Positions 329 through 14,423 of a stretch of DNA of 17,601 bases are shown piece after piece. This stretch comes from a virus (lineage: Duplodnaviria; Heunggongvirae; Uroviricota; Caudoviricetes). Positions within the stretch are counted from its first letter, which is position 1. Each line of letters starts with the position of its first letter. Location of the stretch: the IMG/VR virus record IMGVR_UViG_2695420739_000021; one strand, given 5' to 3'. The notes under the pieces are model-generated. The model worked only from the letters and a program-made list of their open reading frames with translations, was not told the origin of the DNA and did not search any database. The position numbers and the translations under genes were made by a program.

Positions 329-342
329 GGGATTTTTGGTCC

Positions 343-375
343 ACGAGAGTAGTTTAATTGAGTATGTAACTACAT
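343..375. other. Candidate att core region (attL side), with inverted repeat GTAGTT / AACTAC
   Basis: Identity between the two unit starts begins at 342/9051. Inverted repeat 349-354 / 368-373 resembles core-type integrase half-sites. Exact crossover cannot be fixed without attB. Confidence 0.3.
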
Positions 376-410
376 GATTTTAAATAGTATGCTTGATTCA
401 ACTTTTAAAC

Positions 411-434
411 CGTATAACTAAACGTATAACTAAA
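411..434. repeat. Tandem 12-bp direct repeats CGTATAACTAAA x2 (putative integrase arm-type sites, P' arm)
   Basis: Perfect tandem copies at 411-422 and 423-434; same motif occurs four times upstream of int (8858-8912). Confidence 0.45.
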
Positions 435-660
435 ATCATTTGCTGAAAAAGTGTACAATTTAAATGCGAGTTTTCCTGTGGTAAAAGCTCCAACCGTAAC
501 GATGTTCGTTATGGTTGCCTTGATGGTCTGCGTGGTCATTATGACCATTCAGGATTTGAAGGGTGACGCTTCCGACTTCCTCAAATTGAGGTTTCCGAAA
601 ATATCAGCGGGTTAGCGATTAATCTGACCATTAATTAAACTGCGAAAATTTCGTAATTAT

Positions 661-686
661 CCCGATATGGGGATCACCATATCGGG
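661..686 (-). terminator. Hairpin downstream of capsid-like gene (putative operon terminator)
   Basis: Perfect 10-bp inverted repeat CCCGATATGG / CCATATCGGG with 6-nt spacer, just 3' of the gene ending at 703; followed by AU-rich rather than a clean U-tract. Confidence 0.35.
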
Positions 687-702
687 ATTGATGCCGGAAA
701 AA

Positions 703-1629
703 TCAGCTTTTCGCCAGAACGGTGACGGCCTTATCGAGTTTTTGCCATCCGCAATAGGTGATTGCCCTGAACGCTGTAGCGTCATTCTGGAAAAGGCTAA
801 CCGTCCCTGATTCGGTTTTTATTACCGCCTCATCAGTTGGGGTTATAACCGTGGCTTCAACGTTAATAATCAGCTTTTGAGCGTCTATCAGCATCATGCG
901 ATCCGCCTGTTCGCTCACAATTACCGGTATTCTCAAAAGCTCTATCTGCCAGAACTCAGCATCAGTAAGCTGTAAGGCGTTTTCTACGGGCAAGATTAGC
1001 GACGACGTGGCAAGCGTGTTACCGTTCGCTATGTGCTTTTTGAAAAGCTCTATGAAGTTTTCGGCCTCATCAGCACCATTAAGCACGCCCTCAGGGGATA
1101 CGCCCGCCACCTCCTGGTCACTGGAAAGAAATTTTTTATCTATTTCTTTCACCGATTCCGATGTGATCAAGTCTCTGATCGCTGAATTGGTACCAGGGGT
1201 GCTAAATTTGATTAGCTCGTTATTCAGCATCACAATAGCGCCAAGTTTGCACAGTTTTAGCGCACTTTCGTTTACTTCTCCCTCTTTGACAGGGATTTCT
1301 TCGGCTTCTTTAAGCCATTTACTACCCTTGCCTGATATTGACTGCAATTTTGCGCCAAACGGAAGATTCAGCGCGCTGCTGATTAGCTTGCCTGGTACAG
1401 ACTGCGAAAAAATATACTCGCCAAGCTCTCTTACTATCGGCTCTGCCACCAGCGACGGCATATTATCCGTAGTCATTCCGGCAACAATGGATTTTTCAAG
1501 AAATTTCGATACTGCCGGATCATTTTTTTTCGTCATTTCAATTGCGTCTGCATGGCTGAATTTACACGATGTAAGCACGCTGGCGGCGCGAACTGCCGAC
1601 ACGCCTTTCATGTTTTTAGAAATCATCAT
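703..1629 (-). CDS. HK97-fold major capsid protein-like (308 aa, no delta/scaffold domain)
   Basis: ATGATG start with AGGAGG about 8 nt upstream. Segment KLGAIVMLNNELIKF...EVAGVSPEGVLNGA resembles the conserved HK97-family capsid motif. Last gene of the terS operon. Assignment is from memory, not a search. Confidence 0.5.
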   Translation of the reverse strand: MMISKNMKGVSAVRAASVLTSCKFSHADAIEMTKKNDPAVSKFLEKSIVAGMTTDNMPSLVAEPIVRELGEYIFSQSVPGKLISSALNLPFGAKLQSISGKGSKWLKEAEEIPVKEGEVNESALKLCKLGAIVMLNNELIKFSTPGTNSAIRDLITSESVKEIDKKFLSSDQEVAGVSPEGVLNGADEAENFIELFKKHIANGNTLATSSLILPVENALQLTDAEFWQIELLRIPVIVSEQADRMMLIDAQKLIINVEATVITPTDEAVIKTESGTVSLFQNDATAFRAITYCGWQKLDKAVTVLAKS

Positions 1630-1777
1630 CTTCTTCCTCCTGGTAACATGGGGTTAGGGTTTCGTGAAAATATGGCATCAGAACAGCGGCAGCCTGTAAC
1701 CGTATTTCGGTTGGCTGCTGCTTGTCGTTCATGATTTCCGTGAGTACATCAATAGGGTCTGTGATGTATTCGCTCAT
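1616..1777 (-). CDS. Hypothetical small protein (53 aa) with acidic C-terminal tail
   Basis: ATG at 1777, 11 nt after terS stop; MSEYITDPIDVLTEIMNDKQQPTEIRLQAAAVLMPYFHETLTPCYQEEEDDDF; overlaps capsid start by 14 nt. Not in ORF track (under length cutoff). Confidence 0.35.
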   Translation of the reverse strand: MSEYITDPIDVLTEIMNDKQQPTEIRLQAAAVLMPYFHETLTPCYQEEEDDDF

Positions 1778-1788
1778 AGTTCGCTACC

Positions 1789-2277
1789 TCAGTGTTTTAA
1801 GCCAGTTGGTGGCTTAGGGATGGGGAACCGATTTGAGGAGACATTAGCGGCATTGAGTTTTTTAACCTCTTTTTTCCCAATGCTGCCGATCTTGCGGTGG
1901 GTGAACTGGGCCAGCTTAAACGCGGCATCTAAAGCCAGTTTTGGATCTGTGTCCATGTTGTCAATCAGTATCCTGCCCATTGCTTTGATGGGGTCGGGTA
2001 GGCCGTTATCCATCATCTCAATGGTGTTAATTGATGCCCGTTCCGGTGTAACTTTTTCGGTAACTTTCTTTGTAACTTTTTTCGGTTTTGTAACCTGAAA
2101 AGTTACATCAGAAGTTACAGCCTTAAGATACTTTTTCACCTCCGGATCATTGGATAGCTGCCAGCCTTTAACCCTTGCAGTCTTTTCGCTGTATCCCGCA
2201 TGTATCGCGGCTTCCGTTGGATTTGTGCCCTTTGATAACGCATCAGCAAACCGCTTTTTTTTGGTCGTTAATGCCAT
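1789..2277 (-). CDS. terS: Terminase small subunit (N-terminal HTH type)
   Basis: Internal ATG (MALTTKKKRFADALSKGTNPTEAAIHAGYSEKTARVKGWQL...) matches the TerS DNA-binding N-terminus. The track's longer 208-aa start is an unlikely N-terminal extension. Confidence 0.7.
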   Translation of the reverse strand: MALTTKKKRFADALSKGTNPTEAAIHAGYSEKTARVKGWQLSNDPEVKKYLKAVTSDVTFQVTKPKKVTKKVTEKVTPERASINTIEMMDNGLPDPIKAMGRILIDNMDTDPKLALDAAFKLAQFTHRKIGSIGKKEVKKLNAANVSSNRFPIPKPPTGLKH

Positions 2278-2323
2278 GCAAAAACCTCGTTTTGAGGGGG
2301 TGTAACTTTTCGTGTAACTTTTT
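2048..2323. repeat. Cluster of GTAAC(T)TTT repeats inside and just upstream of terS (candidate pac site)
   Basis: Direct copies at about 2048, 2060, 2072, 2090, 2302, 2313 and inverted AGTTAC at about 2101 and 2113. Two copies lie upstream of the terS start codon, so not purely a coding-repeat effect. Confidence 0.35.
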
Positions 2324-2404
2324 TGAAAAGCAAAATTTTCTATGAATGAGACTGGGGGCGGTGTCCAGGGCGATCGACTTTCCGGCCGGAACACTCCCCC
2401 CCTG

Positions 2405-2566
2405 TCATTGCTCACCGAGTAACGAGATCAGGCCTTCAACTTCATCACTCAGCTTGTTTATTCGTGTCTCAAGCTCTGCGATCTTTTCCATCAATGGCGC
2501 TATGGTGTCTCTTGTTTCCTCGCCAATGGCTTTAATGATGCTTGCCTCGCGTTCTGTGATAGCCAT
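2405..2566 (-). CDS. Hypothetical small coiled-coil protein (53 aa)
   Basis: ATG 3 nt after the stop of the preceding 64-aa gene; MAITEREASIIKAIGEETRDTIAPLMEKIAELETRINKLSDEVEGLISLLGEQ. Not in ORF track. Confidence 0.3.
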   Translation of the reverse strand: MAITEREASIIKAIGEETRDTIAPLMEKIAELETRINKLSDEVEGLISLLGEQ

Positions 2567-2569
2567 TGT

Positions 2570-2764
2570 TTACGCCTCACTTGTTGCAATGCCCAGGCGT
2601 TCGCGTAACAGTACGCGCGCAAGATGCCCTATTGTTGGTGTTGCCGCCCTGCCGTAGATACCTGATTCATTCATCCGGCGCACAATATCGAACTGCAACT
2701 TTTTAAGCTCGTTAAGGATTTCATGATCAATCATCACGGTAGCGCTTTGCTTTATCTCTTCCAC
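2570..2764 (-). CDS. Hypothetical small protein (64 aa), first gene of packaging operon; possible DNA-binding
   Basis: GTG start at 2764 with AGGAG 8 nt upstream; sits after an AT-rich promoter-like region and the terminator of the preceding unit. Confidence 0.4.
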   Translation of the reverse strand: MEEIKQSATVMIDHEILNELKKLQFDIVRRMNESGIYGRAATPTIGHLARVLLRERLGIATSEA

Positions 2765-2852
2765 TTTGTTTTCTCCTGATACTTATCATTGCATAACCAG
2801 TATTTTCGATAGATTATCATTAATTAACCATATTTGAAGATATATGAGATCG

Positions 2853-2876
2853 AAAAAAAGCCGGATTGCTCCGGCT
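2853..2876 (-). terminator. Intrinsic terminator after the 81-aa gene
   Basis: Minus-strand hairpin GCCGGAGCAATCCGGC followed by U7 (plus strand: A-run 2853-2859, hairpin 2860-2875). Confidence 0.6.
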
Positions 2877-2894
2877 ATGTGCTCACTTCTTCGG

Positions 2895-3140
2895 TTATTC
2901 TCCAGCGCTTTTAACGTTGATGGTTGTTACCTGTTCCGCTTCGGCAATCTCCCGTTCTGTCAGCGTGGCAAAGTTTGCCGCCGCTGTGGTCATGAATGCG
3001 CTTATCAGTTCGGGATGCTCCTTCGCGTATCCTTCCCCCGCGTGGCGGTCTATCGTTCTGATTGCCACCTTTAAGGAAAGCTCTGTCATGTCTAACGCTT
3101 TATATTTTGGCGCTGTCTTATCTCTGGTTTTTCTGTTCAT
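2895..3140 (-). CDS. Hypothetical protein (81 aa), origin-adjacent
   Basis: ATG at 3140 directly abutting the iteron array; followed by the intrinsic terminator. Confidence 0.35.
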   Translation of the reverse strand: MNRKTRDKTAPKYKALDMTELSLKVAIRTIDRHAGEGYAKEHPELISAFMTTAAANFATLTEREIAEAEQVTTINVKSAGE

Positions 3141-3345
3141 TCCCCACTACTCCCCACTTTTGCTCCCCACTTTTTGAAATTACCCACCGTCTCCCCACCT
3201 CTTTTTTTTGTGATTCTAACGTTATGTTTTTCAATATGTTTTTTACTCCCCACTTTTTTGGGTATATACAGGTGGGAAAGTGGGTAATTATGTTTCAATT
3301 TTGTTAAATTCCCCACTCCCCCCACTTTTACTCCCCACTTTTTAC
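3141..3345. repeat. Replication origin candidate: iterons (C)TCCCCACTTTT plus AT-rich segment
   Basis: At least 8 direct copies (3141, 3150, 3163, 3191, 3245, 3310, 3319, 3331), 2 inverted (GTGGGAAAGTGGGTA at 3272-3286), and AT-rich stretch 3201-3245. Directly 3' of the rep gene. Confidence 0.6.
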
Positions 3346-4675
3346 AGCGGGCGCACGTCATCACCGTCAATAACGATTACGCCATCATTTTCCAGCTTGT
3401 ACAGCCAGCGCCGGAAGTGCTTCATCTCATACCCCAGCTTTTTCATATCGTCGCGGAGAAGGGCGATAGTGCACGCCTCCCCGTGTGCTGTTCGTGTTCT
3501 GATGCACTGCCATAGCGCGGCGTGATTCTCCGTCTTGTTCCCTGCCTCCTCGATGCGCTCCAGTTCAACGGGAGGGCGCGGCTTATCCACCACCACCAGC
3601 GACGTGATTAACTCCCCGTCAGCGTCGGTAAAAAGCTCCACCACGCGTAAGTCATATGCTGCTTCTTTGAGTTCCTCCGCGTCCTTCATTTTGGTACATG
3701 AGATAACCAGCGCTTCGCTGCCTGCGTCCTCCCTGCGTATCCGGTATTCGGCGTCCAGTGATGCACGAAATGCACTGGAACCACGCGCCCCCTTTGTTTC
3801 ATCCTTGCCGGAATGGTGAACCACCAGCACCGTTGCCCCTGTGCGCCGTTTCAGTTCGTCACACCCACGGATAAACGCCCCCATATCACGGGAATCATTT
3901 TCATCATTGCCGCCAAAGCAGCGCGCCAGCGTATCCAGAATAATCATTCGAACCGGTTTACCCGTTTCCCGTTCCACCTGACGGGCAGCGATAACCATTT
4001 CACGTGCACAACCTCCCAGGCTTTTACACGACGCGGAACACCTATACCGCCTTCACCAACCACATAGAGAACCGCACCATGTGCAACCCTGCGGCCTCCC
4101 CACTGGCGACCAGTGGCAACATGGCACGCCCACGATCCGGCAAGGAATGATTTATAGGACCCGCTAGCCCCGTATATGCTGCATAGCGATACCGCCGGAA
4201 TAATCCCCTTAACCACGTAATCCAGTTGCGTGTCGTATCCGGTAGATCCAACGCTCATCGGTAGCGTGGTTTTTCGCTGGTGGTTTTTTTCTTCCGCCGG
4301 CTCTTTCCCGCGCACCCGTTCCAGGTATTCGCGCCAGTTCTCCCGCATATGGCTGTGCATCCCTTCGGGGTAATAATTCGCATCAGTTACACCCGCCGCC
4401 GCCAGCTTGTGCGCAATGGCATTAATATTTGATGGCCTGATGTGGCCTGCCTTGTACAGCCGGACACAATAGCGCCCCTCGTCGATGATTCTCAGGTCTG
4501 CCAGTTCATCCAGTTGATCATCAGCCAGCACAACGGGAGGCACATTATCGCCAGCCAGTCGCCCGTCCTGTTCCTGCCACTGTTTCGCATGTGCCCAGGC
4601 ATCACTACCCGCAAAAATAATGACTTCGGTCATCTTGTCGTAAGGCTGTTTTTTTAAGTTCGGTGCGCTTTTCAT
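3342..4675 (-). pseudogene. Disrupted replication protein (AAA_25/RepA-like), split by 67-bp deletion
   Basis: Copy 2 has one 466-aa ORF; copy 1 is split into 3944..4675 (N-terminal, Walker A GASGSYKSF, frameshifted tail) and 3342..3998 (C-terminal, Walker B MIILD). Deletion at about 3999-4001. Confidence 0.7.
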
Positions 4676-4971
4676 TTCTTGCCCCTGAATCCGTTAATCA
4701 TGGTTTTCAGCTTCTGGATGTTTGCCCGTGCCCTGGCGTTGCTGGTGGGCACGTTATGCGGCGCGGTCTGTACCAGAGAAAAATCACGCCGGAACTGATA
4801 AACAGGCATCACGCAATCATATTCGTAACCTTCACGGCGGTAAGTTACGCACCGTCCCGCCACGCCCTTAATCATTACCGTGCCGCCGTACTGGTCGCGG
4901 TAAATATCACCGCGCGTAAATTTAGGGTGAGTGTTGCCACTGGCAGTTAAGCCAGAATATTTAAGTTTCAT
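4672..4971 (-). CDS. Hypothetical protein (99 aa), translationally coupled to rep
   Basis: ATG at 4971 with GGAG upstream; stop overlaps rep start (ATGA). Confidence 0.4.
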   Translation of the reverse strand: MKLKYSGLTASGNTHPKFTRGDIYRDQYGGTVMIKGVAGRCVTYRREGYEYDCVMPVYQFRRDFSLVQTAPHNVPTSNARARANIQKLKTMINGFRGKK

Positions 4972-4976
4972 TATTT

Positions 4977-5210
4977 TTATTCTCCGGTGTGCTGTTCGTT
5001 ATATCTGTCGTGCAATGTCTCTATTTCCTGCAACTCATTTATTACAGGCTCAAGAAGCGTTATTAATGCCGTGACAATTCTTGATTTTTGTTTGTCGCGT
5101 TCATTGTCGCCAAGTGTTTCAAGCCATATGCGCAATATTTCGTACATACCTTCAGCGTAAGCAAGGGCACTAAATGCGCGGTCTATTGTTTCGTGGTAAA
5201 TATCACGCAT
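4977..5210 (-). CDS. Small acidic helical protein (77 aa)
   Basis: ATG at 5210; net negative charge; overlaps stop of the upstream gene (TAATATG). Confidence 0.4.
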   Translation of the reverse strand: MRDIYHETIDRAFSALAYAEGMYEILRIWLETLGDNERDKQKSRIVTALITLLEPVINELQEIETLHDRYNEQHTGE

Positions 5211-5211
5211 A

Positions 5212-5433
5212 TTAATCCCCGTCCGTTGTTTTTCTTAAAACAGCTTCTGTCACGAAATCAGCATAGTTAGCGGCAATATCAAGAATATTTAGCCCTGTAT
5301 CTCTGTGCTCATCAGTGCAAAGAAAGAAAAAAGCCACCCGCATAATTTCAGATATTGACGAAAGCGCATCAGCCGCATCATCAGGAACGCCGGAAAATTC
5401 TTGTTTCAGGGAATTAAAACGATCATCACGCAT
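5212..5433 (-). CDS. Small acidic protein (73 aa), paralog of the next gene (PDDAADAL motif)
   Basis: Start MRDDRF with a G8 run as ribosome-binding site; overlaps the upstream gene (ATGCGTGA). Confidence 0.4.
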   Translation of the reverse strand: MRDDRFNSLKQEFSGVPDDAADALSSISEIMRVAFFFLCTDEHRDTGLNILDIAANYADFVTEAVLRKTTDGD

Positions 5434-5647
5434 AACCCCCCCCATTTTCACAATCAGCAACAAGAATATTTTTAGCGTCATTCAGCGACCGCGTTGCGAT
5501 GTATCGGATACATTCCAGGGCGAACTGTGTCCGGTCTTTCTGTTCTTCTCCCTGCGCAAGCTCTGCAGTGCATTCAATATCGATAAGCGCGTGCATCAGC
5601 GTAGTGAGCGCGTCGGCTGCTGCGTCCGGTGTGGTTTTATTGCACAT
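5426..5647 (-). CDS. Small acidic protein (73 aa), paralog (TPDAAADAL motif)
   Basis: Start MCNKTT with AGGAGG 7 nt upstream; overlaps the Icd-like stop. Confidence 0.4.
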   Translation of the reverse strand: MCNKTTPDAAADALTTLMHALIDIECTAELAQGEEQKDRTQFALECIRYIATRSLNDAKNILVADCENGGGYA

Positions 5648-6197
5648 GGCACACCTCCTGACGAATACGGGCGGCGAATACAGCAACACAACCGGACGGG
5701 CAACGGCTACGCGCTTCGCGTTCCGTCCAGGCGGTTACGTGGATGATTTGATGTTCTGACGCGCCAAAGATGATAAAGCGCCAGAGAAAGGCGGTTTGAG
5801 AATGTACAAGGGTAGGGATAGTAGCCATGTTGGCAGCCTCCTCAGTGTGGTTAAGATAACCGCCACCGGAAACGCCAATTTCGCTGGTGGCGGACTGTAC
5901 AGGGTTGGCGTAACCGGACACTGAAGAAACCGGCGCGGATTGCTCCGCCCCCGTACAGCCCACCATTGATAAGGTGTGACTATGCGGCACAAAAAAACAC
6001 GCGGGGCGCGTGTTATGCGCTTCAGTTTTGCCCAGGACGCCAATCCCGGCACCCGTTTTATGAGGTGCGCGGGAATCATAGCTATTTTCGACACTGGCGA
6101 TCAACTGGTTTTTTTCTCCGATATTCAGGGCCAGAAAACGCCACACAAAGGCCGTTTGTGTGTGTACAAGGTGTGGTATATGATTTACGGCAACCAT
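5637..6197 (-). CDS. Icd-like (Ash-family) protein, tandem two-domain reading frame; internal start at 5828 gives a 63-aa Icd-like product
   Basis: Two paralogous segments share HLVH(T/S)QTAF(V/L)WRF; distal one ends ...TEREARSR...VFAARIRQEV, like P4-type Icd-like proteins. No stop between them. GAGGAGG precedes the internal ATG at 5828; GGAG precedes ATG at 6197. Confidence 0.45.
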   Translation of the reverse strand: MVAVNHIPHLVHTQTAFVWRFLALNIGEKNQLIASVENSYDSRAPHKTGAGIGVLGKTEAHNTRPACFFVPHSHTLSMVGCTGAEQSAPVSSVSGYANPVQSATSEIGVSGGGYLNHTEEAANMATIPTLVHSQTAFLWRFIIFGASEHQIIHVTAWTEREARSRCPSGCVAVFAARIRQEVCHVQ

Positions 6198-6285
6198 AAC
6201 GGCTCCTAGTTTACGTTGTTGGTTAGACGCCCCGTATGTGTTCCCAGCACTGCGGGGCGTTGATTTTTGTGTAATGGCAAGTACA

Positions 6286-6329
6286 ATGGTAATTACCATG
6301 TAGGTATAGTAATGAAGGGTAATTACCAT
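6286..6329. promoter_or_regulatory. Paired palindromic operators in divergent promoter region
   Basis: Perfect 14-bp palindrome ATGGTAATTACCAT (6286-6299) and 12-bp GGTAATTACCAT (6318-6329), centres 30 bp apart; second overlaps the RHH start codon. Possible TATAGT -10 at 6305-6310. Confidence 0.5.
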
Positions 6330-6501
6330 GTCAACACCATTAGAAAAACGTTCGCCTCCATACCAAATGCGATTACCGGAAGACTTCAGAGCGCAGCTAG
6401 AAGAAGCAGCTAAGGCCGATGGCGACACATCTTTAGCCACTTGGATTAAACGCGTTCTCCGCAAAGAATTACAGCAACGCGGCATAGAACCCAAAGGATA
6501 A
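6328..6501 (+). CDS. Ribbon-helix-helix (Arc/CopG-like) DNA-binding protein, 57 aa; putative element repressor
   Basis: MSTPLEKRSPPYQMRLPEDFRAQLEEAAKADGDTSLATWIKRVLRKELQQRGIEPKG fits the Arc-type RHH pattern. Divergent from the Icd/rep operon. Not in ORF track. Confidence 0.5.
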   Translation: MSTPLEKRSPPYQMRLPEDFRAQLEEAAKADGDTSLATWIKRVLRKELQQRGIEPKG

Positions 6502-6543
6502 AAACTATCAGCGCCGTGGTGTGAGGTATTACGGCGCATTGCT

Positions 6544-6732
6544 ATGCAGGACAACACAATGACCGATAAAGAATTGACCAAAACATTATCACCGGCACGG
6601 AAAAGACGGCGCAGAAAGATAGAGCATGAATCAGAAAGATTCGCGCCATGTGCTTTTGCCCTTGAGCAATTCCTTAAAGAGTACAGGGAAAAGCGCTCAT
6701 TGCAGGTATGGCAACGAACTGAACCAGACTGA
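6544..6732 (+). CDS. Hypothetical basic small protein (62 aa)
   Basis: ORF between RHH gene and the plus-strand terminator; weak ribosome-binding site; arginine-rich stretch KRRRRK. Confidence 0.25.
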   Translation: MQDNTMTDKELTKTLSPARKRRRRKIEHESERFAPCAFALEQFLKEYREKRSLQVWQRTEPD

Positions 6733-6827
6733 TTGCATTGCCCACCAGCCTGATAGCGGCTATCATCCCCGTGCTTATGTTTGGGATCACATACACATAA
6801 GGCGCAGCGGGTTAATTGTTCAGAAAG

Positions 6828-6854
6828 GCGGCTCCATATCGGGGCCGCTTTTTT
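6828..6854 (+). terminator. Intrinsic terminator at convergence of RHH unit and alpA
   Basis: Stem GCGGCTCC / GGGGCCGC (one G-U pair), 5-nt loop, then T6. Confidence 0.55.
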
Positions 6855-6880
6855 CGTGTTTGTCATATCTGTGATACCCG

Positions 6881-7087
6881 TTAAGCAGCCGTTCCGCGTG
6901 CTTCCTCTTCGCGTTCTTTCTGCCAGGACAACACATCATCCTCATACCATCCGCGACGGCGTAAACCAACGCGAAAACCCTGCGGAAATTCTCCGGCGTT
7001 GATCATGCTTTGCAGCGTGCTGTCTGCCTTGATGTGGATAATTTTTTTTACTTCCTGGCGAAAGATAATTTTTCTGATTGCTTCCAT
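6881..7087 (-). CDS. alpA: AlpA-family regulator / excisionase-like protein (68 aa)
   Basis: ...STLQSMINAGEFPQGFRVGLRRRGWYEDDVLSWQ matches the AlpA-family HTH pattern. Confidence 0.75.
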   Translation of the reverse strand: MEAIRKIIFRQEVKKIIHIKADSTLQSMINAGEFPQGFRVGLRRRGWYEDDVLSWQKEREEEARGTAA

Positions 7088-7103
7088 CGTGATTTACCTT
7101 GTG

Positions 7104-7191
7104 AATCCGGTGTATTCCGGTGACAAATACGGTAAATCATCGGATATGGGTAAAAACAGTTCCCACCGTTTTTAAACGGTATACACCGTTT
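7104..7191. promoter_or_regulatory. alpA upstream control region: TCCGGTG repeats and ACCGTTT/AAACGGT inverted repeats
   Basis: ATCCGGTG (7104-7111) and TTCCGGTGA (7114-7122) spaced 10 bp; inverted repeats at 7165-7180 and 7174-7191. The TCCGGTG motif recurs next to the att core. Confidence 0.35.
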
Positions 7192-7220
7192 TTTATATTG
7201 ATGATTTGAAATGGAATTAT

Positions 7221-7243
7221 AAAAAAAGCGGCATTTCTGCCGC
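7221..7243 (-). terminator. Intrinsic terminator of the int / 83-aa unit
   Basis: Minus-strand hairpin GCGGCAGAAATGCCGC followed by U7. Confidence 0.6.
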
Positions 7244-7254
7244 TTCCAGGATTG

Positions 7255-7506
7255 TTACCGCCATTTTTTGGGCCTGCCTCCGATCTTCATAGATGCCGGA
7301 CGTACGACCTTATCAATACTTACCGCCAGATTTCTGGAAGCGCCACGGGATACCAGAAAATCTACTACCTGTTTTTTTGATGGGGCCGTCGTTCTGTCCT
7401 CCGGATCGTAGGTTGACCAAAATTCATGCTGAACCATCAGGGCCAGTTGCAGCCCGTCGCAATTGCATCTGATATTTTTTTGCATCTTAACGGTTTCATG
7501 TTTCAC
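7255..7506 (-). CDS. Hypothetical int-linked small protein (83 aa)
   Basis: ORF downstream of int on the same strand, before the terminator; GTG start at 7506 (alternative ATG at M8); TATAAT motif about 28 nt upstream. Confidence 0.4.
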   Translation of the reverse strand: MKHETVKMQKNIRCNCDGLQLALMVQHEFWSTYDPEDRTTAPSKKQVVDFLVSRGASRNLAVSIDKVVRPASMKIGGRPKKWR

Positions 7507-7583
7507 GGCCTTGTCGTTAAATTTGATGCAATTATACGACGGTTTTACATGGTTTTCGTAGTTTTTACTGGTTTTCTGTACAG

Positions 7584-8825
7584 CTACACGGCTCGGATAC
7601 CCCTTTTACCACTGGCGAGGGTTACGCCCGTCGCCGCAGCCTCGACAAATTCGCCCCACCAGCGCATCAGCACGATGCGTTTTTCTATGTAGTTGCTCCG
7701 GTTGTATGCCCGTCTAACTTCGTTGGTGTCGACGTGGGCAAGTGCCGCCTCTATTACGTCCGGCTCGAATCCTTCCTCGTTCGCTGCTGTGCTGAATATG
7801 GCGCGTAATCCATGAGACACCAGCACGCCAGCGAATCCCATACGCCGCAATGCTGCGTTAGCTGTCTGGCTGTTCATCGGCTGCTGTGGGTCTTTCAGAC
7901 TTGGGAAAACGTAATTGCGGTGGTGGCTGATTGGTTTCATGGCCTCCAGCACCGCCATAGCCTGACCGGAAAGCGGGATAACGTGATCCCTGCGCATCTT
8001 CATGCGTCCGGCAGGTATCGTCCATTGCTTCGCGTCCAGGTTGATTTCATCCCACCGCGTTGATGACGCTTCGGCGGGACGGGTTACGGTCAGTAACTGC
8101 CATTCAATCAGTAATCTGGTCTGCCGTTCTGTTGCCGATACTGATAAAGCCTGCATAAGCTCGGGCAGCTGTTCGGGGCGGATTGTTGGCATATGTTTTT
8201 TTACAGGTGAGGGAAACGCCTTACGCACATTCATAGCCGGATTGGCATCAATCAGCCCACTGTTGGCGGCGTAATCCATTACCTCATTAACGCGCTGTAA
8301 AACCCGCTTGAGTGTTTCCAGGTTGCCGCGCTCCTTGATGGGGGTAAGCACTTCAACGAACCTTCGGGCGGTGAGGGTATCTATTGGCGTGTTGCCGATG
8401 AACGGGAATACATATTTATCCAGCGAACGCCAGATGTCTTTAATCGTGTTGGGGGCCAGATTCTGGCTGATTTTCACCTGGTACCATGCCGCCGCCACAT
8501 TTTCGAACGTGTTCCCTTGTCTTCGGGCCTCTGTCTCTCTTTTTTGCCTCTCGTGGTCCTGCGGGTCAGTTCCGGCACTGATTAACGTCCTGTACTCGCT
8601 ACGGCGTTTTCTGGCATCAGCCAGGGAAACATCTTCAAGCGATCCAAAACTCAGCAATATTCTTTTTTTGTCCGATGGTCGGTAGTAGGAAAATCTCCAG
8701 AGTTTTGATCCAGACGGTTTGACCAGGAGAAAAAGCCCTCCGCCGTCCTGCAGGGTGTACTCCTTTTGCGCTGGTCTGGCTGCTTTGATCTGCACTGTGG
8801 TTAATGGGTGTGTTTTTCTCGCCAT
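7584..8825 (-). CDS. int: Tyrosine integrase, P4-type (413 aa)
   Basis: N-terminus MARKTHPLTTVQIKAARPAQKEYTLQDGGGLFLLVKPSGSKLWRFSYY is typical of P4-like integrases; ATG at 8825 preferred over the upstream GTG. Confidence 0.85.
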   Translation of the reverse strand: MARKTHPLTTVQIKAARPAQKEYTLQDGGGLFLLVKPSGSKLWRFSYYRPSDKKRILLSFGSLEDVSLADARKRRSEYRTLISAGTDPQDHERQKRETEARRQGNTFENVAAAWYQVKISQNLAPNTIKDIWRSLDKYVFPFIGNTPIDTLTARRFVEVLTPIKERGNLETLKRVLQRVNEVMDYAANSGLIDANPAMNVRKAFPSPVKKHMPTIRPEQLPELMQALSVSATERQTRLLIEWQLLTVTRPAEASSTRWDEINLDAKQWTIPAGRMKMRRDHVIPLSGQAMAVLEAMKPISHHRNYVFPSLKDPQQPMNSQTANAALRRMGFAGVLVSHGLRAIFSTAANEEGFEPDVIEAALAHVDTNEVRRAYNRSNYIEKRIVLMRWWGEFVEAAATGVTLASGKRGIRAV

Positions 8826-8857
8826 ATGTCTATGATTCCACACGAAAAAACAGGGTT

Positions 8858-8912
8858 TTAGTTATACGGCTTTAGTTATACGCCAGCCCGTATAACTAAA
8901 CGTATAACTAAA
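8858..8912. repeat. Four copies of CGTATAACTAAA (two inverted, two direct): putative arm-type sites, P arm
   Basis: TTTAGTTATACG at about 8858 and 8871; CGTATAACTAAA at about 8890 and 8901. Same motif as 411-434. Confidence 0.45.
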
Positions 8913-8923
8913 AAATCCGGCTG

Positions 8924-9037
8924 ATAGCTTATAAATCCGGTGATGTTCGGTGACTAAAAAACATAAAAAAACCCGCCAATCAAGTGATTAGCGGGTTATC
9001 CCTGTCTTATCCGGTGCTTTCCGGTGATATCCGGTGG
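8924..9037. repeat. TCCGGTG direct repeats, three phased at 10 bp, next to att core (candidate directionality-factor sites)
   Basis: Copies at about 8924 (variant), 8935, 8946 (variant), 9009, 9019, 9029; the last three are exactly 10 bp apart. Confidence 0.4.
8962..8997 (-). terminator. Intrinsic terminator between the copy-2 capsid operon and int
   Basis: Minus-strand stem AACCCGC / GCGGGTT with 14-nt loop followed by U7. Confidence 0.5.
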
Positions 9038-9119
9038 GCGATTTGGTCGGCACGAGAGTAGTTTAATTGAGTATGTAACTACATGATTTTAAATAGTATG
9101 CTTGATTCAACTTTTAAAC

Positions 9120-9143
9120 CGTATAACTAAACGTATAACTAAA
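9120..9143. repeat. Tandem CGTATAACTAAA x2 (P' arm of junction attP)
   Basis: Copy-2 equivalent of 411-434; with 8858-9037 and the core near 9051 this forms a full attP-like site. Confidence 0.45.
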
Positions 9144-9411
9144 ATCATTTGCTGAAAAAGTGTACAATTTAAATGCGAGTTTTCCTGTGGTAAAAGCTCC
9201 AACCGTAACGATGTTCGTTATGGTTGCCTTGATGGTCTGCGTGGTCATTATGACCATTCAGGATTTGAAGGGTGACGCTTCCGACTTCCTCAAATTGAGG
9301 TTTCCGAAAATATCAGCGGGTTAGCGATTAATCTGACCATTAATTAAACTGCGAAAATTTCGTAATTATCCCGATATGGGGATCACCATATCGGGATTGA
9401 TGCCGGAAAAA

Positions 9412-10338
9412 TCAGCTTTTCGCCAGAACGGTGACGGCCTTATCGAGTTTTTGCCATCCGCAATAGGTGATTGCCCTGAACGCTGTAGCGTCATTCTGGA
9501 AAAGGCTAACCGTCCCTGATTCGGTTTTTATTACCGCCTCATCAGTTGGGGTTATAACCGTGGCTTCAACGTTAATAATCAGCTTTTGAGCGTCTATCAG
9601 CATCATGCGATCCGCCTGTTCGCTCACAATTACCGGTATTCTCAAAAGCTCTATCTGCCAGAACTCAGCATCAGTAAGCTGTAAGGCGTTTTCTACGGGC
9701 AAGATTAGCGACGACGTGGCAAGCGTGTTACCGTTCGCTATGTGCTTTTTGAAAAGCTCTATGAAGTTTTCGGCCTCATCAGCACCATTAAGCACGCCCT
9801 CAGGGGATACGCCCGCCACCTCCTGGTCACTGGAAAGAAATTTTTTATCTATTTCTTTCACCGATTCCGATGTGATCAAGTCTCTGATCGCTGAATTGGT
9901 ACCAGGGGTGCTAAATTTGATTAGCTCGTTATTCAGCATCACAATAGCGCCAAGTTTGCACAGTTTTAGCGCACTTTCGTTTACTTCTCCCTCTTTGACA
10001 GGGATTTCTTCGGCTTCTTTAAGCCATTTACTACCCTTGCCTGATATTGACTGCAATTTTGCGCCAAACGGAAGATTCAGCGCGCTGCTGATTAGCTTGC
10101 CTGGTACAGACTGCGAAAAAATATACTCGCCAAGCTCTCTTACTATCGGCTCTGCCACCAGCGACGGCATATTATCCGTAGTCATTCCGGCAACAATGGA
10201 TTTTTCAAGAAATTTCGATACTGCCGGATCATTTTTTTTCGTCATTTCAATTGCGTCTGCATGGCTGAATTTACACGATGTAAGCACGCTGGCGGCGCGA
10301 ACTGCCGACACGCCTTTCATGTTTTTAGAAATCATCAT
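9412..10338 (-). CDS. HK97-fold major capsid protein-like (copy 2)
   Basis: Identical translation to 703..1629. Confidence 0.5.
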   Translation of the reverse strand: MMISKNMKGVSAVRAASVLTSCKFSHADAIEMTKKNDPAVSKFLEKSIVAGMTTDNMPSLVAEPIVRELGEYIFSQSVPGKLISSALNLPFGAKLQSISGKGSKWLKEAEEIPVKEGEVNESALKLCKLGAIVMLNNELIKFSTPGTNSAIRDLITSESVKEIDKKFLSSDQEVAGVSPEGVLNGADEAENFIELFKKHIANGNTLATSSLILPVENALQLTDAEFWQIELLRIPVIVSEQADRMMLIDAQKLIINVEATVITPTDEAVIKTESGTVSLFQNDATAFRAITYCGWQKLDKAVTVLAKS

Positions 10339-10486
10339 CTTCTTCCTCCTGGTAACATGGGGTTAGGGTTTCGTGAAAATATGGCATCAGAACAGCGGCA
10401 GCCTGTAACCGTATTTCGGTTGGCTGCTGCTTGTCGTTCATGATTTCCGTGAGTACATCAATAGGGTCTGTGATGTATTCGCTCAT
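10325..10486 (-). CDS. Hypothetical small protein with acidic tail (copy 2)
   Basis: Copy of 1616..1777 at +8709. Confidence 0.35.
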   Translation of the reverse strand: MSEYITDPIDVLTEIMNDKQQPTEIRLQAAAVLMPYFHETLTPCYQEEEDDDF

Positions 10487-10497
10487 AGTTCGCTACC

Positions 10498-10986: not shown

Positions 10987-11113
10987 GCAAAAACCTCGTT
11001 TTGAGGGGGTGTAACTTTTCGTGTAACTTTTTTGAAAAGCAAAATTTTCTATGAATGAGACTGGGGGCGGTGTCCAGGGCGATCGACTTTCCGGCCGGAA
11101 CACTCCCCCCCTG

Positions 11114-11275
11114 TCATTGCTCACCGAGTAACGAGATCAGGCCTTCAACTTCATCACTCAGCTTGTTTATTCGTGTCTCAAGCTCTGCGATCTTTTCCAT
11201 CAATGGCGCTATGGTGTCTCTTGTTTCCTCGCCAATGGCTTTAATGATGCTTGCCTCGCGTTCTGTGATAGCCAT
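11114..11275 (-). CDS. Hypothetical coiled-coil protein, 53 aa (copy 2)
   Basis: Copy of 2405..2566. Confidence 0.3.
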   Translation of the reverse strand: MAITEREASIIKAIGEETRDTIAPLMEKIAELETRINKLSDEVEGLISLLGEQ

Positions 11276-11278
11276 TGT

Positions 11279-11473: not shown

Positions 11474-11603
11474 TTTGTTTTCTCCTGATACTTATCATTG
11501 CATAACCAGTATTTTCGATAGATTATCATTAATTAACCATATTTGAAGATATATGAGATCGAAAAAAAGCCGGATTGCTCCGGCTATGTGCTCACTTCTT
11601 CGG

Positions 11604-13752: not shown

Positions 13753-13986
13753 TTATTCTCCGGTGTGCTGTTCGTTATATCTGTCGTGCAATGTCTCTAT
13801 TTCCTGCAACTCATTTATTACAGGCTCAAGAAGCGTTATTAATGCCGTGACAATTCTTGATTTTTGTTTGTCGCGTTCATTGTCGCCAAGTGTTTCAAGC
13901 CATATGCGCAATATTTCGTACATACCTTCAGCGTAAGCAAGGGCACTAAATGCGCGGTCTATTGTTTCGTGGTAAATATCACGCAT
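13753..13986 (-). CDS. Small acidic helical protein, 77 aa (copy 2)
   Basis: Identical translation to 4977..5210. Confidence 0.4.
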   Translation of the reverse strand: MRDIYHETIDRAFSALAYAEGMYEILRIWLETLGDNERDKQKSRIVTALITLLEPVINELQEIETLHDRYNEQHTGE

Positions 13987-13987
13987 A

Positions 13988-14209
13988 TTAATCCCCGTCC
14001 GTTGTTTTTCTTAAAACAGCTTCTGTCACGAAATCAGCATAGTTAGCGGCAATATCAAGAATATTTAGCCCTGTATCTCTGTGCTCATCAGTGCAAAGAA
14101 AGAAAAAAGCCACCCGCATAATTTCAGATATTGACGAAAGCGCATCAGCCGCATCATCAGGAACGCCGGAAAATTCTTGTTTCAGGGAATTAAAACGATC
14201 ATCACGCAT
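13988..14209 (-). CDS. Small acidic protein, 73 aa (copy 2)
   Basis: Copy of 5212..5433. Confidence 0.4.
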   Translation of the reverse strand: MRDDRFNSLKQEFSGVPDDAADALSSISEIMRVAFFFLCTDEHRDTGLNILDIAANYADFVTEAVLRKTTDGD

Positions 14210-14423
14210 AACCCCCCCCATTTTCACAATCAGCAACAAGAATATTTTTAGCGTCATTCAGCGACCGCGTTGCGATGTATCGGATACATTCCAGGGCGAA
14301 CTGTGTCCGGTCTTTCTGTTCTTCTCCCTGCGCAAGCTCTGCAGTGCATTCAATATCGATAAGCGCGTGCATCAGCGTAGTGAGCGCGTCGGCTGCTGCG
14401 TCCGGTGTGGTTTTATTGCACAT
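14202..14423 (-). CDS. Small acidic protein, 73 aa (copy 2)
   Basis: Copy of 5426..5647. Confidence 0.4.
   Translation of the reverse strand: MCNKTTPDAAADALTTLMHALIDIECTAELAQGEEQKDRTQFALECIRYIATRSLNDAKNILVADCENGGGYA

What the first reader, a model, noticed from the sequence alone, without database searches (positions are those of the whole stretch)
4977..5647. Three tandem small acidic paralogs between the Icd-like gene and rep
Three overlapping 73-77 aa ORFs are strongly acidic (estimated net charge about -6 to -8) and two share a PDDAADAL / TPDAAADAL motif. They are translationally coupled (TAATATG, ATGCGTGA overlaps). The position corresponds to where P4-like elements carry helper-manipulating genes; small acidic proteins are typical DNA mimics or inhibitors, so these are candidates for helper-interference or anti-defence functions.
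Basis: inference. Interest (0 to 1): 0.5.

Follow-up and report, generated by a model that had tools for sequence, protein, structure and literature searches.

The report
Small acidic genes in satellite early operon
Three real but uncharacterised small acidic helical proteins sit in the RNA-controlled early (replication) operon of an E. coli phage satellite; they are not paralogs, and the first two are one gene in many close relatives, joined or split by a hypervariable run of G's.

Summary
The ORFs exist as described, on the minus strand: orfC 5426-5647, orfB 5212-5433 and orfA 4977-5210. Their net charges are -6, -8 and -8, and the junctions are ATGCGTGA and TAATATG. All three are conserved and under purifying selection.

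"Three paralogs" is not supported. Profile comparisons find only an 11-residue motif shared by orfC and orfB, and nothing for orfA.

orfC and orfB are the two modules of a gene that is a single 144-150 aa ORF in many E. coli relatives. A G-run at the junction is G8 here, which gives two genes. In loci differing by one substitution over 1,157 nt it is G7 or G10 (fused); G9 and G12 are inferred from protein variants. Diverged relatives keep separate, overlapping genes.

The host element is a roughly 8.7 kb PICI-type satellite, present twice in tandem. Just upstream lie isrK and C4 antisense RNAs and an Icd-like ORF, and a C4 loop pairs with the Icd-like Shine-Dalgarno. The chain Icd-like, orfC, orfB, orfA, DUF4222, RepA is tightly coupled. 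The trio therefore occupies the place held by Ant in phage P1.

No sequence or fold homolog of known function was found, so any helper- or host-targeting role is inference only.

The parts
5426..5647 (-). orfC, the 'N-module'. 73 aa, net charge -6. Start ATG with an AGGAGG Shine-Dalgarno, overlapping the Icd-like stop by 11 nt. Ends ...CENGGGYA*.
   Evidence: Matches phrog_5146 and the first half of phrog_2512. Homologs. dN/dS 0.07-0.59.
5436..5443 (-). Poly-G tract (G8 on the coding strand, C8 on the + strand) at the orfC/orfB junction. G8 gives two ORFs. G7 or G10 gives one fused ORF of 144 or 145 aa. G9 or G12 gives an orfC form with an out-of-frame tail (80 aa with G9, 87 aa with G12).
   Evidence: coordinates. 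(G7, G8 and G10 read in DNA of related loci, plus G8 with a compensating T deletion). (proteins implying G9 and G12). (three tract lengths among loci that differ by 1 substitution over 1,157 nt).
5212..5433 (-). orfB, the 'C-module'. 73 aa, net charge -8. Its start overlaps the orfC stop (ATGCGTGA).
   Evidence: Matches phrog_24341 and the second half of phrog_2512. The exact protein is on at least 999 contigs. Alignment. dN/dS 0.16-0.58.
4977..5210 (-). orfA. 77 aa, net charge -8. A separate family, predicted as a two-helix antiparallel hairpin. Starts 1 nt after the orfB stop (TAATATG).
   Evidence: phrog_2196. 519 homologs, nearly all of the 120 listed being 77 aa. AlphaFold2 pLDDT 93.5 with helices 2-32 and 37-75. 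dN/dS 0.17-0.78.
5637..5828 (-). Icd-like leader ORF (63 aa), the first ORF of the coupled chain.
   Evidence: NCBIfam NF033153 phage_ICD_like, 57 bits against a cut-off of 25. RefSeq annotation.
5834..5848 (-). Predicted C4 RNA target: ACACUGAGGAGGCUG, which contains the Shine-Dalgarno of the Icd-like ORF.
   Evidence: C4 nucleotides 39-53 pair over 15 nt (11 Watson-Crick plus 4 G-U). In the shuffle control the 14-nt loop segment pairs over 13 nt, and only 6 of 5000 shuffled loops reach that. Further 7-nt complementary segments at 5872-5878, and at 6037-6043 and 6020-6026 inside isrK.
5883..5970 (-). C4-type antisense (immunity) RNA.
   Evidence: Rfam RF01695, 77.6 bits against a gathering score of 45, full length.
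5992..6068 (-). isrK-type RNA with a terminator-like hairpin at 5996-6014.
   Evidence: Rfam RF01394, 66 bits against a gathering score of 50. Terminator scan.
4672..4971 (-). DUF4222 gene (99 aa, net charge +12). It starts 5 nt after the orfA stop and overlaps the replicase start by 4 nt.
   Evidence: Pfam PF13973, E = 2e-23..
3342..4675 (-). RepA-family (AAA_25) replicative helicase gene, disrupted in this copy by a 67-nt deletion. The intact copy is at 12051-13451.
6881..7087 (-). AlpA-like helix-turn-helix regulator (68 aa).
   Evidence: Pfam Phage_AlpA, 17.9 bits, below the cut-off of 21. RefSeq calls it an 'HTH transcriptional regulator'.
7584..8843 (-). Tyrosine integrase of the satellite. 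Single-copy relatives are integrated next to tRNA-Pro and yejM.
   Evidence: Pfam..
13753..14423 (-). Identical second copy of orfA (13753-13986), orfB (13988-14209) and orfC (14202-14423). Its G8 tract is at 14212-14219, and its C4 and isrK RNAs are at 14659-14746 and 14768-14844.

Best explanation
The three ORFs are accessory genes of the early (replication) operon of a PICI-type phage satellite of E. coli.

Shown by sequence:
- They form links 2 to 4 of a six-ORF chain: Icd-like, orfC, orfB, orfA, DUF4222, RepA. Neighbouring ORFs overlap or lie 1-5 nt apart.
- The chain begins at an Icd-like leader ORF whose Shine-Dalgarno is complementary to a loop of a C4-type antisense RNA encoded just upstream, itself preceded by an isrK-type RNA.

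Inferred, by analogy with P1 c4-icd-ant and Gifsy-1 isrK-orf45-anrP:
- While the satellite is quiescent, the C4 RNA blocks translation of the leader. That silences everything coupled to it.
- When the helper phage activates the satellite, the leader is translated. Ribosomes are then relayed through orfC, orfB and orfA into DUF4222 and the replicase.

The proteins themselves are three unrelated families of about 75 aa: all-helical, strongly acidic and without any catalytic motif.
- orfA is a confident two-helix hairpin.
- orfC and orfB are two modules that work either as separate coupled genes (here and in diverged relatives) or as one fused protein (many E. coli relatives). A hypermutable G-run decides which.

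My committed guess at function is inference only. They are stoichiometric protein-binding modulators made at the onset of the satellite's lytic cycle. They most likely target a helper-phage or host protein, in an antirepressor-like or interference-like manner, rather than acting as core replication factors.
For: Context:
- Integrase, AlpA-like regulator, RepA, TerS and a capsid-like gene in about 8.7 kb, next to tRNA-Pro in relatives.
- C4 RNA at 77.6 bits and isrK RNA at 66 bits, both above their gathering scores.
- Icd-like ORF matching NF033153.
- C4 loop pairing with the Shine-Dalgarno: 15 nt for C4 nt 39-53; in the control the loop segment pairs over 13 nt, reached by 6 of 5000 shuffles. 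A second pair of complementary boxes lies upstream, giving a P1-like layout.
- ORF spacing along the chain is -11, -8, +1, +5 and -4 nt.
- The same overlapping architecture is present in E. ruysiae and Raoultella relatives.

Precedents: translational coupling from a small leader ORF to an antirepressor under isrK control (PMC4825925); P1 C4/Icd/Ant (PMC8201110); immunity RNAs in Gram-negative PICIs (PMC10111431).

The genes are real: dN/dS is below 1 and conservation is wide.

Fused/split evidence.

Arguments for an accessory rather than a core role:
- The families are restricted to satellites. There is no tblastn hit in 50,697 phage genomes.
- Only 51 clusters at 50% identity match the orfC+orfB profile among 1.84 billion proteins.
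- Content between Icd-like and DUF4222 is mosaic: extra modules are inserted, orfA is replaced, the C-module is truncated or deletion-fused, and allelic variants occur.
- The block occurs with two different replicase types and three different late modules.

Structure: orfA is a helical hairpin at pLDDT 93.5. The fused orfC+orfB model is all-helical.
Against: - No experiment and no homolog of known function supports any specific target. Pfam, NCBIfam, PADLOC, PHROG annotations, PDB sequence profiles and Foldseek against PDB and BFVD all gave nothing.
- The trio is always immediately upstream of DUF4222 plus the replicase, which fits a replication role equally well.
- C4 and isrK were not detected in several relatives that carry the same small genes. 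The RNA control is therefore a feature of this regulatory-region type, not of the gene family.
- The fused orfC+orfB structural model is low confidence (pLDDT 52.9).
- Coupling is inferred from ORF spacing only.
Confidence: 0.4

Rival explanations
1. Replication accessory or regulatory proteins. The small acidic proteins, together with DUF4222, would assist or restrain the satellite replicase, for example in helicase loading, origin remodelling or copy-number control, much as Cnr does for P4 alpha.
For: - Invariant synteny and tight coupling with DUF4222 and the replicase in every locus examined.
- The two replicase types that follow them (AAA_25, and D5_N/DUF5906) share a similar N-terminal region of about 40 aa. 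That region could be a common docking surface.
Against: - Content is mosaic and dispensable-looking: orfA is replaced in E. ruysiae, the C-module is truncated in Shigella, and a C-module/orfA deletion chimera is on 36 contigs.
- Variants reassort freely with replicase type.
- Strongly acidic proteins are unlikely to bind DNA directly.
- The Cnr analogy comes from memory and was not tested.
Confidence: 0.25
2. Anti-defence proteins or DNA mimics. Acidic helical proteins would imitate DNA to block restriction enzymes or other host or helper DNA-binding defences.
For: Net charge is -6 to -8 in about 75 aa. Expression is expected early (context). Allelic variants of the N-module are swapped between loci.
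Against: - No similarity to any known anti-defence or DNA-mimic family in sequence or fold.
- dN/dS is below 1 throughout, with no sign of positive selection in the pairwise estimates.
- Acidity alone is weak evidence.
Confidence: 0.12
3. Relay ORFs. On this view the act of translating them matters, because it carries ribosomes from the regulated leader to the replicase and prevents Rho-dependent polarity. The protein products would have little or no function of their own.
For: - The chain is tightly overlapping.
- Frameshifts at the G tract are tolerated in all three reading frames.
- Modules are easily gained, lost or fused.
Against: - Protein-level purifying selection: dN/dS is as low as 0.07-0.3 at dS of 0.09-1.5.
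- Lengths are conserved, with invariant residues across diverged genera.
- orfA folds confidently.
Confidence: 0.1
4. Three tandem paralogs produced by local gene duplication.
For: They have similar size, charge and helical content. orfC and orfB share the PD(D/A)AADAL motif. Both orfB and orfA start with MRD, encoded by the same ATGCGTGAT.
Against: hhalign gives probability 1% for N-module against C-module, and 0.1-0.2% for orfA against either. BLASTP finds no alignment for orfA. The shared motif is an Ala-rich helix start and could be convergent.
Confidence: 0.08

Closest known systems
Phage P1/P7 immI operon (c4 antisense RNA, icd, ant)
   Same: A C4-family RNA (Rfam RF01695) sits upstream of an Icd-like ORF. 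A C4 loop is complementary to the Shine-Dalgarno of that ORF, and a second set of complementary boxes lies upstream. The downstream genes overlap the leader, so their expression should depend on its translation.
   Different: The genes after the leader are not Ant homologs. They are three families without known relatives, followed by DUF4222 and a replicase. The element is an 8.7 kb integrated satellite, not a phage-plasmid. An isrK-type RNA precedes C4.
Gifsy-1 isrK-orf45-anrP locus of Salmonella (PMC4825925)
   Same: An isrK-family RNA (RF01394) with a terminator lies upstream of a small leader ORF that is translationally coupled to effector genes.
   Different: Here a C4 RNA is interposed between isrK and the leader. 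The effector is not an AnrP-like antirepressor. No experiment has been done on this locus.
Satellite P4 early operon (CI RNA controlling epsilon and alpha)
   Same: In a satellite, an immunity RNA controls an operon in which small helper-directed genes precede the replicase. The integrase is annotated in the P4 style and the element carries Ash/Icd-like sequences. The P4 details come from my own knowledge and from PMC10111431.
   Different: No sequence similarity to any protein in the phage collection. I assume that collection includes P4 but did not verify it. The replicase here is a RepA/AAA_25 helicase, and the late genes are TerS plus a capsid-like gene rather than sid/psu/delta.
Gram-negative PICIs such as EcCICFT073 and EcCIEDL933 (PMC6092414; bioRxiv 10.1101/2022.09.08.507074; PMC10111431)
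   Same: [quoted passage not shown] The size is about 9-15 kb. The same orfC/orfB/orfA/DUF4222/replicase block occurs in a capsid-forming-PICI-like relative (L004).
   Different: In the parts of these papers I searched by keyword, the small genes between the regulatory RNAs and the replicase are not described or tested.
Homopolymer contingency (phase-variable) loci
   Same: A G7-G12 run lies inside coding sequence, and its length differs among otherwise almost identical loci.
   Different: Every frame still leaves both modules translatable: fused, coupled, or with a short out-of-frame tail. It may therefore be a tolerated mutational hot spot rather than an ON/OFF switch. No phenotype is known.

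Membership tests
Tandem paralog family (orfC, orfB and orfA homologous to each other) | Statistically significant sequence or profile similarity between the members | tested here: not met
   orfC versus orfB by BLASTP: 11/27 identities, E = 0.002 for the single comparison. hhalign N-module versus C-module: probability 1%, 11 columns. orfA versus N-module 0.2% and versus C-module 0.1%. No BLASTP alignment for orfA.
Tandem paralog family (orfC, orfB and orfA homologous to each other) | Common fold | tested here: inconclusive
   orfA is a confident helical hairpin. The fused orfC+orfB model is helical, with hairpin-like pairs of helices, but pLDDT is only 52.9.
P1-type immI module (c4 - icd - coupled effector) | C4-family antisense RNA encoded upstream on the same strand | tested here: met
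   RF01695, 77.6 bits against a gathering score of 45, at 5883-5970(-).
P1-type immI module (c4 - icd - coupled effector) | Single-stranded C4 segments complementary to the ribosome-binding site of the leader ORF | tested here: met
   C4 nt 39-53 pair over 15 nt with ACACUGAGGAGGCUG at 5848-5834. In the shuffle control the loop segment pairs over 13 nt, reached by 6 of 5000 shuffles. Additional boxes.
P1-type immI module (c4 - icd - coupled effector) | Icd-like leader ORF | tested here: met
   NF033153 phage_ICD_like, 57.1 bits against a cut-off of 25.
P1-type immI module (c4 - icd - coupled effector) | Downstream effector translationally coupled to the leader | tested here: inconclusive
   An 11-nt overlap between Icd-like and orfC, and overlaps or gaps of at most 5 nt along the rest of the chain. 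This is sequence evidence only. Coupling has not been measured.
P1-type immI module (c4 - icd - coupled effector) | Effector is an Ant/AnrP-type antirepressor homolog | tested here: not met
   No Pfam, NCBIfam or PHROG antirepressor family is hit. No tblastn hit in 50,697 phage genomes.
Known DNA-mimic or anti-defence proteins (Ocr, ArdA and similar) | Sequence or fold similarity to a characterised member | tested here: not met
   PADLOC, Pfam and PDB profile searches gave nothing. Foldseek against PDB and BFVD gave no hit with E <= 0.001, only generic helical hairpins. PADLOC models defence systems rather than anti-defence proteins, so that library is only a weak test.
Known DNA-mimic or anti-defence proteins (Ocr, ArdA and similar) | Surface array of carboxylates that matches the spacing of DNA phosphates | not testable with these tools
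   Only the net charge (-6 to -8) is known. No reliable oligomeric model is available.
Gram-negative PICI-type phage satellite (the host element) | int, alpA-like regulator, own replicase, about 10 kb, specific att site, no tail or lysis genes | tested here: met
   Integrase, an AlpA-like HTH (sub-threshold), RepA AAA_25, TerS and a capsid-like gene in an 8.7 kb unit. Relatives sit next to tRNA-Pro and yejM. No tail or lysis genes are annotated.
Gram-negative PICI-type phage satellite (the host element) | Induction and transfer by a helper phage | not testable with these tools
   No experiment is available for this element.
Phase-variable contingency locus | Homopolymer tract in coding sequence whose length varies among near-identical strains | tested here: met
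   G7, G8 and G10 occur in loci that differ by 1 substitution over 1,157 nt. G9 and G12 are inferred from proteins.
Phase-variable contingency locus | Tract length switches expression or phenotype ON and OFF | not testable with these tools
   Both modules stay translatable in every frame, and no expression data exist.

The most novel reading that the evidence does not exclude
The G-run at the orfC/orfB junction could be a true contingency switch of a phage satellite. By slipping between G7/G10 (one fused protein), G8 (two coupled proteins) and G9/G12 (N-module with a hydrophobic tail, and the ribosome relay terminating out of register), it would heritably change two things. One is the form of the N/C protein pair. 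The other, through the translational-coupling chain, is how much DUF4222 and replicase are made. That would give subpopulations of cells whose satellite responds differently to the helper.
Probability: 0.1. Interest if true: 0.6.

Novelty: new member of a known kind. Interest (0 to 1): 0.35.

Why it matters
Gram-negative PICIs are widespread in pathogenic E. coli, yet the small genes between their regulatory region and their replicase have not been characterised in the literature I could search. This analysis gives a concrete, testable wiring diagram: C4/isrK RNA, Icd-like leader, then a coupled chain ending in the replicase. It corrects the gene model, showing that two 'hypothetical proteins' are halves of one module pair that a G-run fuses or splits. 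It also narrows the candidates for helper- or host-directed factors to three short helical acidic proteins that are easy to clone. If one of them proves to be an antirepressor-like or interference factor, it would add a new protein family to satellite-helper biology. If not, these are ordinary accessory ORFs.

Tried and rejected
- **Family libraries.** Pfam, NCBIfam, PADLOC and PHROGs gave only PHROG families of unknown function.
- **PDB sequence profiles.** Searches with the orfA and fused orfC+orfB alignments gave only chance-level hits.
- **Fold searches.** Foldseek of the confident orfA model against PDB and BFVD returned generic helical hairpins: designed heterodimers, HP0062 and YscE, none with E <= 0.001. 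I did not search with the fused model because its pLDDT is 52.9.
- **Rop-like RNA binder.** I considered a Rop-like role for orfA, since it is a helical hairpin next to an antisense-RNA system. I rejected it. The protein has a net charge of -8, and Rop was not among the 50 best Foldseek matches listed.
- **Counting G-tract alleles by BLAST.** I tried short queries against complete E. coli genomes. Flank variation makes the identity bands uninformative: 34 records matched at 99% identity or better with the G8 query, and 2 with the G7 query. I used DNA of fetched loci and protein contig counts instead.
- **Invalid hhalign runs.** The orfA alignment A4 contained a deletion chimera (P0260), which produced a spurious 99.7% match to the C-module. 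I discarded those runs and repeated them with the clean alignment A5.
- **Locus retrieval.** The search for related loci with the diverse C-module alignment failed because no stretch was conserved enough. With the fused alignment it returned only two loci.
- **Plasmid hits.** These are chromosomal fragments filed as plasmids.
- **Literature.** A search for the RefSeq accessions found no paper. Keyword searches within the PICI, cf-PICI, HE-PICI and EcCIMP1 papers found no description of these genes.
- **C4/isrK in relatives.** Neither RNA was detected in relatives L003, L010, L012 or L017. L010 and L012 were also searched at a relaxed threshold.
Full report
**1. What is in the window**

The 17.6 kb window holds two tandem copies of an element of about 8.7 kb, with start-to-start spacing of 8,709-8,776 nt. 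All main genes are on the minus strand. In transcription order they are:
- a tyrosine integrase (7584-8843);
- an AlpA-like HTH (6881-7087);
- a region rich in Icd/Ash-like sequence;
- the three ORFs of the finding;
- a DUF4222 gene (4672-4971);
- a RepA/AAA_25 helicase;
- three small ORFs;
- a small terminase subunit;
- a capsid-like gene.

Near-identical single copies lie next to tRNA-Pro and yejM in Shiga-toxigenic-type E. coli such as O26:H11. RefSeq annotates the three ORFs there as hypothetical proteins between 'host cell division inhibitor Icd-like protein' and 'DUF4222' / 'helicase RepA family protein'. The gene set and size fit a Gram-negative PICI-type phage satellite as laid out in PMC6092414 and PMC10111431.

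**2. Checking the observation**

The ORFs are real and sit at the stated coordinates, on the minus strand:

| ORF | Coordinates | Length | Net charge |
|---|---|---|---|
| orfC | 5426-5647 | 73 aa | -6 |
| orfB | 5212-5433 | 73 aa | -8 |
| orfA | 4977-5210 | 77 aa | -8 |

- pI is 4.3-4.7 for all three.
- The junctions are as described: ATGCGTGA (8-nt overlap) and TAATATG (1-nt gap).
- orfC also overlaps the stop of the upstream Icd-like ORF by 11 nt. orfA ends 5 nt before DUF4222, which overlaps the replicase start by 4 nt.
- The motif is present: TPDAAADAL in orfC and VPDDAADAL in orfB.
- The genes are more than chance ORFs. The exact orfB and orfA proteins are each recorded on about 1,000 contigs, which is the counting limit. 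orfA has 519 homologs, and nearly all of the 120 listed are 77 aa long.
- Pairwise dN/dS is 0.07-0.59 for the orfC module, 0.16-0.58 for the orfB module and 0.17-0.78 for orfA. DUF4222 gives 0.23-0.58 (one pair had no nonsynonymous change).

**3. They are not paralogs**

- BLASTP between orfC and orfB aligns only 27 residues around the motif, with E = 0.002 for that single comparison.
- I built alignments of each module that include diverged relatives. hhalign aligns only 11 columns between them, with probability 1%.
- orfA shows nothing against either module, by BLASTP or by profile (probabilities 0.2% and 0.1%).
- A first profile run was invalid because the orfA alignment contained a natural deletion chimera, P0260.
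- What the three share is size, charge and helical content. AlphaFold2 gives orfA as a two-helix antiparallel hairpin at pLDDT 93.5. The fused orfC+orfB protein is modelled as all-helical, but only at pLDDT 52.9.

**4. orfC and orfB are one gene in many relatives**

- PHROG 2512 is a 154-position profile. Its first half matches orfC and its second half matches orfB.
- I searched with the conceptual fusion. All 120 best of 390 hits carried the orfC-orfB junction in one frame, mostly as fused proteins of 144-151 aa down to 72% identity. A few carried a third N-terminal module of about 73 aa, giving 217-221 aa.
- The junction is a G-run. The window has G8 in both copies, which puts orfB in another frame.
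- G7 gives ...CENGGVMRDD... (144 aa) and G10 gives ...CENGGGVMRDD... (145 aa). G8 with one T deleted restores the frame as ...GGGMRDD.... All four states were read directly in DNA of fetched loci.
- Proteins ending ...GGGLCVMIVLIP and ...GGGGLCVMIVLIP imply that G9 and G12 also exist.
- Over the 1,157 nt from the Icd-like start to the DUF4222 stop, loci with G7 (L004, L005), G8 (window, L001, L016) and G10 (L007) differ from the window by one substitution. The tract therefore mutates far faster than the surrounding sequence.
- Both states are common. The split orfB is on at least 999 contigs plus 703 for a second variant. Fused forms are on 258, 212, 152 and 129 contigs, among others.

**5. 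Which arrangement is older**

- An exhaustive profile search of 1.84 billion representatives found only 51 clusters with E <= 0.001.
- Among them, diverged N-modules (ending ...GHA...HHA or ...DHA) and diverged C-modules (starting M[RLCY]DD...) occur as separate proteins of 72-77 aa.
- The 8-nt overlap was read directly in the E. ruysiae and Raoultella loci.
- Separate coupled genes are therefore probably ancestral. The fusions are a by-product of the G-run in the E. coli/Shigella lineage.

**6. Regulatory context**

- Rfam finds a full-length C4 antisense RNA at 5883-5970(-), scoring 77.6 bits against a gathering score of 45.
- It also finds an isrK RNA at 5992-6068(-), scoring 66 bits against 50. 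Both lie immediately upstream of the Icd-like ORF (5637-5828, NF033153) and on the same strand.
- C4 nucleotides 39-53, which form the apical loop of its second hairpin, can pair over 15 nt with ACACUGAGGAGGCUG (5848-5834). This sequence contains the Shine-Dalgarno of the Icd-like ORF. In the shuffle control the 14-nt loop segment pairs over 13 nt, and only 6 of 5,000 shuffled loops do as well.
- A second unpaired C4 segment (ACGCCAA) is complementary to UUGGCGU at 5878-5872. A further pair of complementary boxes lies inside isrK.
- From my own knowledge of the work of Citron, Biere, Riedel, Heinrich and Schuster, this matches the phage P1 immI layout. There, C4 RNA masks the icd ribosome-binding site, and ant, which is translationally coupled to icd, is then not made. 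PMC8201110 summarises the C4/Icd/Ant relation.
- The Gifsy-1 locus isrK-orf45-anrP works through the same leader-ORF coupling (PMC4825925).
- PMC10111431 reports C4 and isrK hits in some Gram-negative PICIs and links them to the P4 CI immunity RNA.
- The trio thus occupies the effector position of an immI-type cassette. Through the unbroken chain of overlaps, DUF4222 and the replicase occupy it too.
- C4 and isrK were found in the window-type regulatory region (also in L004). They were not found in L003, L010, L012 or L017, which carry the small genes behind other Icd-like leaders.

**7. Distribution and modularity**

- Neither the fused protein nor orfA has any tblastn match in 50,697 phage genomes.
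- Hits in the plasmid collection are chromosomal fragments filed as plasmids.
- The block [Icd-like, N, C, orfA, DUF4222, replicase] recurs with either an AAA_25 helicase or a D5_N/DUF5906 primase. The two replicase types share a similar N-terminal region of about 40 aa.
- It also recurs with three different late modules: TerS plus a capsid-like gene; HK97 capsid, protease and portal; and lambda E/D/Nu1-like genes.
- Between the leader and DUF4222 the content is mosaic:
  - an extra acidic module is fused in front of N (L010);
  - an unrelated gene family of roughly 66-120 aa (MxNLSxxDLNxIQF...) is inserted before N (L012) or between N and C (L003), and a similar ORF replaces orfA in L003 and L017;
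  - the C-module is truncated in Shigella (L002);
  - a C/orfA deletion chimera is on 36 contigs;
  - two sharply different central segments occur in the N-module, and two variant types in the C-module.

**8. Interpretation**

*Shown.* The gene models, the fused/split polymorphism, the lack of paralogy, purifying selection, restriction to satellites, the RNA-leader-chain architecture, and the complementarity between C4 and the Shine-Dalgarno.

*Inferred.* That C4 represses the leader, and that translation is relayed down the chain. This rests on analogy with P1 and Gifsy-1.

*Guess at protein function.* The proteins have no enzymatic motifs. They are short, helical and acidic, and they are made at the start of the satellite's active phase. 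They vary in a modular way, independently of the replicase and late modules. I therefore favour stoichiometric binders of helper or host proteins, acting in an antirepressor-like or interference-like manner (overall confidence 0.4).

*Rivals.*
- A replication-accessory role is the main rival (0.25), because synteny with DUF4222 and the replicase is invariant.
- Anti-defence or DNA mimicry (0.12) rests on charge alone.
- A pure 'ribosome relay' role (0.1) is disfavoured by protein-level constraint.

**9. Novelty and score**

- The element type, the immunity RNAs and the presence of small unknown ORFs are known in outline.
- These particular proteins are annotated only as hypothetical. Keyword searches within the papers I consulted, and a search for their RefSeq accessions, found nothing on them.
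- The corrected gene model and the G-run polymorphism are new details of moderate interest.
- The most novel reading is a contingency switch that tunes the relay to the replicase. It is not excluded, but I put it at about 10%.
- Overall interest is 0.35.

Noticed in passing
window 342-8892 and 9051-17601: The whole satellite is present as two direct tandem copies. They are identical except for a 67-nt deletion plus 32 clustered substitutions in repA of copy 1 (4001-4349, which disrupts the gene) and one substitution in DUF4222 (4698). The copy-to-copy junction (about 8844-9060) is not found contiguous in any of 5,426 complete E. coli genomes; the related loci I examined carry a single copy.
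   Followed up: partly
window 5883-5970(-) and 5992-6068(-); second copy 14659-14746 and 14768-14844: C4 antisense RNA and isrK RNA (Rfam, both above gathering score) lie upstream of the Icd-like ORF. A C4 loop is complementary to that ORF's Shine-Dalgarno. This is a P1 immI-like immunity cassette inside a PICI-type satellite.
   Followed up: yes
window 5637-6866(-): The 409-aa ORF listed mechanically here is not a gene. It runs through the isrK and C4 RNAs and through two Icd-like repeats (…FVWRFLAL… and …FLWRFIIF…TEREARSRCPSGCVAVFAARIRQ). RefSeq annotates the stretch as Ash-family and Icd-like pseudogene fragments plus a 63-aa Icd-like CDS. Close relatives have an intact 186-aa Phage_ASH protein ending at the same stop.
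   Followed up: partly
window 6328-6501(+) and 6544-6732(+): Two small ORFs lie on the opposite strand between the AlpA-like gene and the RNAs. The first (57 aa) has a weak Arc/ribbon-helix-helix match (E = 0.04). Equivalent opposite-strand genes are called in most related loci. They may encode a divergent repressor of the early operon.
   Followed up: no
window 12051-13451(-) compared with L002 6972-8720, L003 6779-8584 and L017 7954-9768: The replicase behind DUF4222 is swapped between a 466-aa AAA_25 RepA helicase and a 582-604-aa D5_N/DUF5906 primase-helicase. Both types share a similar N-terminal region of about 40 aa (MK.AP..K.QP....TEVIIFAGSDAW.HAK.W...).
   Followed up: partly
L012 5799-6011; L003 5682-6068 and 6287-6487; L017 7453-7653: Another small-gene family (MxNLSxxDLNxIQFxEKFTGQLLVN..GRVV.NYHLPD..., roughly 66-120 aa) is inserted at different positions in the same coupled chain in different satellites, and a similar ORF replaces orfA in L003 and L017. 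Module boundaries repeatedly use the same overlap sequences (CATGCGTGA, ATGCA(C/T)AATAA). These may serve as recombination joints.
   Followed up: partly
L010 6001-6666 (proteins P0049 and P0087): In some E. coli elements a third acidic helical module of about 73 aa (MSQEITLQQAAERAH...NAEGY) is fused in frame in front of the N-module, giving proteins of 217-221 aa. It has no Pfam match.
   Followed up: partly
window 703-1629(-) and 1789-2277(-): The late region consists only of a small terminase subunit (Terminase_2) and a 308-aa protein that matches HK97-type capsid models weakly: Pfam 28.8 bits, and NCBIfam just below its cut-off. It may be a capsid-derived size-redirecting or interference protein rather than a full capsid gene.
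   Followed up: no
L003 2409-2477: An int-alpA RNA (Rfam RF02996, 49.8 bits against a gathering score of 35.8) lies between the integrase and alpA in the E. ruysiae relative. It was not detected in the window.
   Followed up: no
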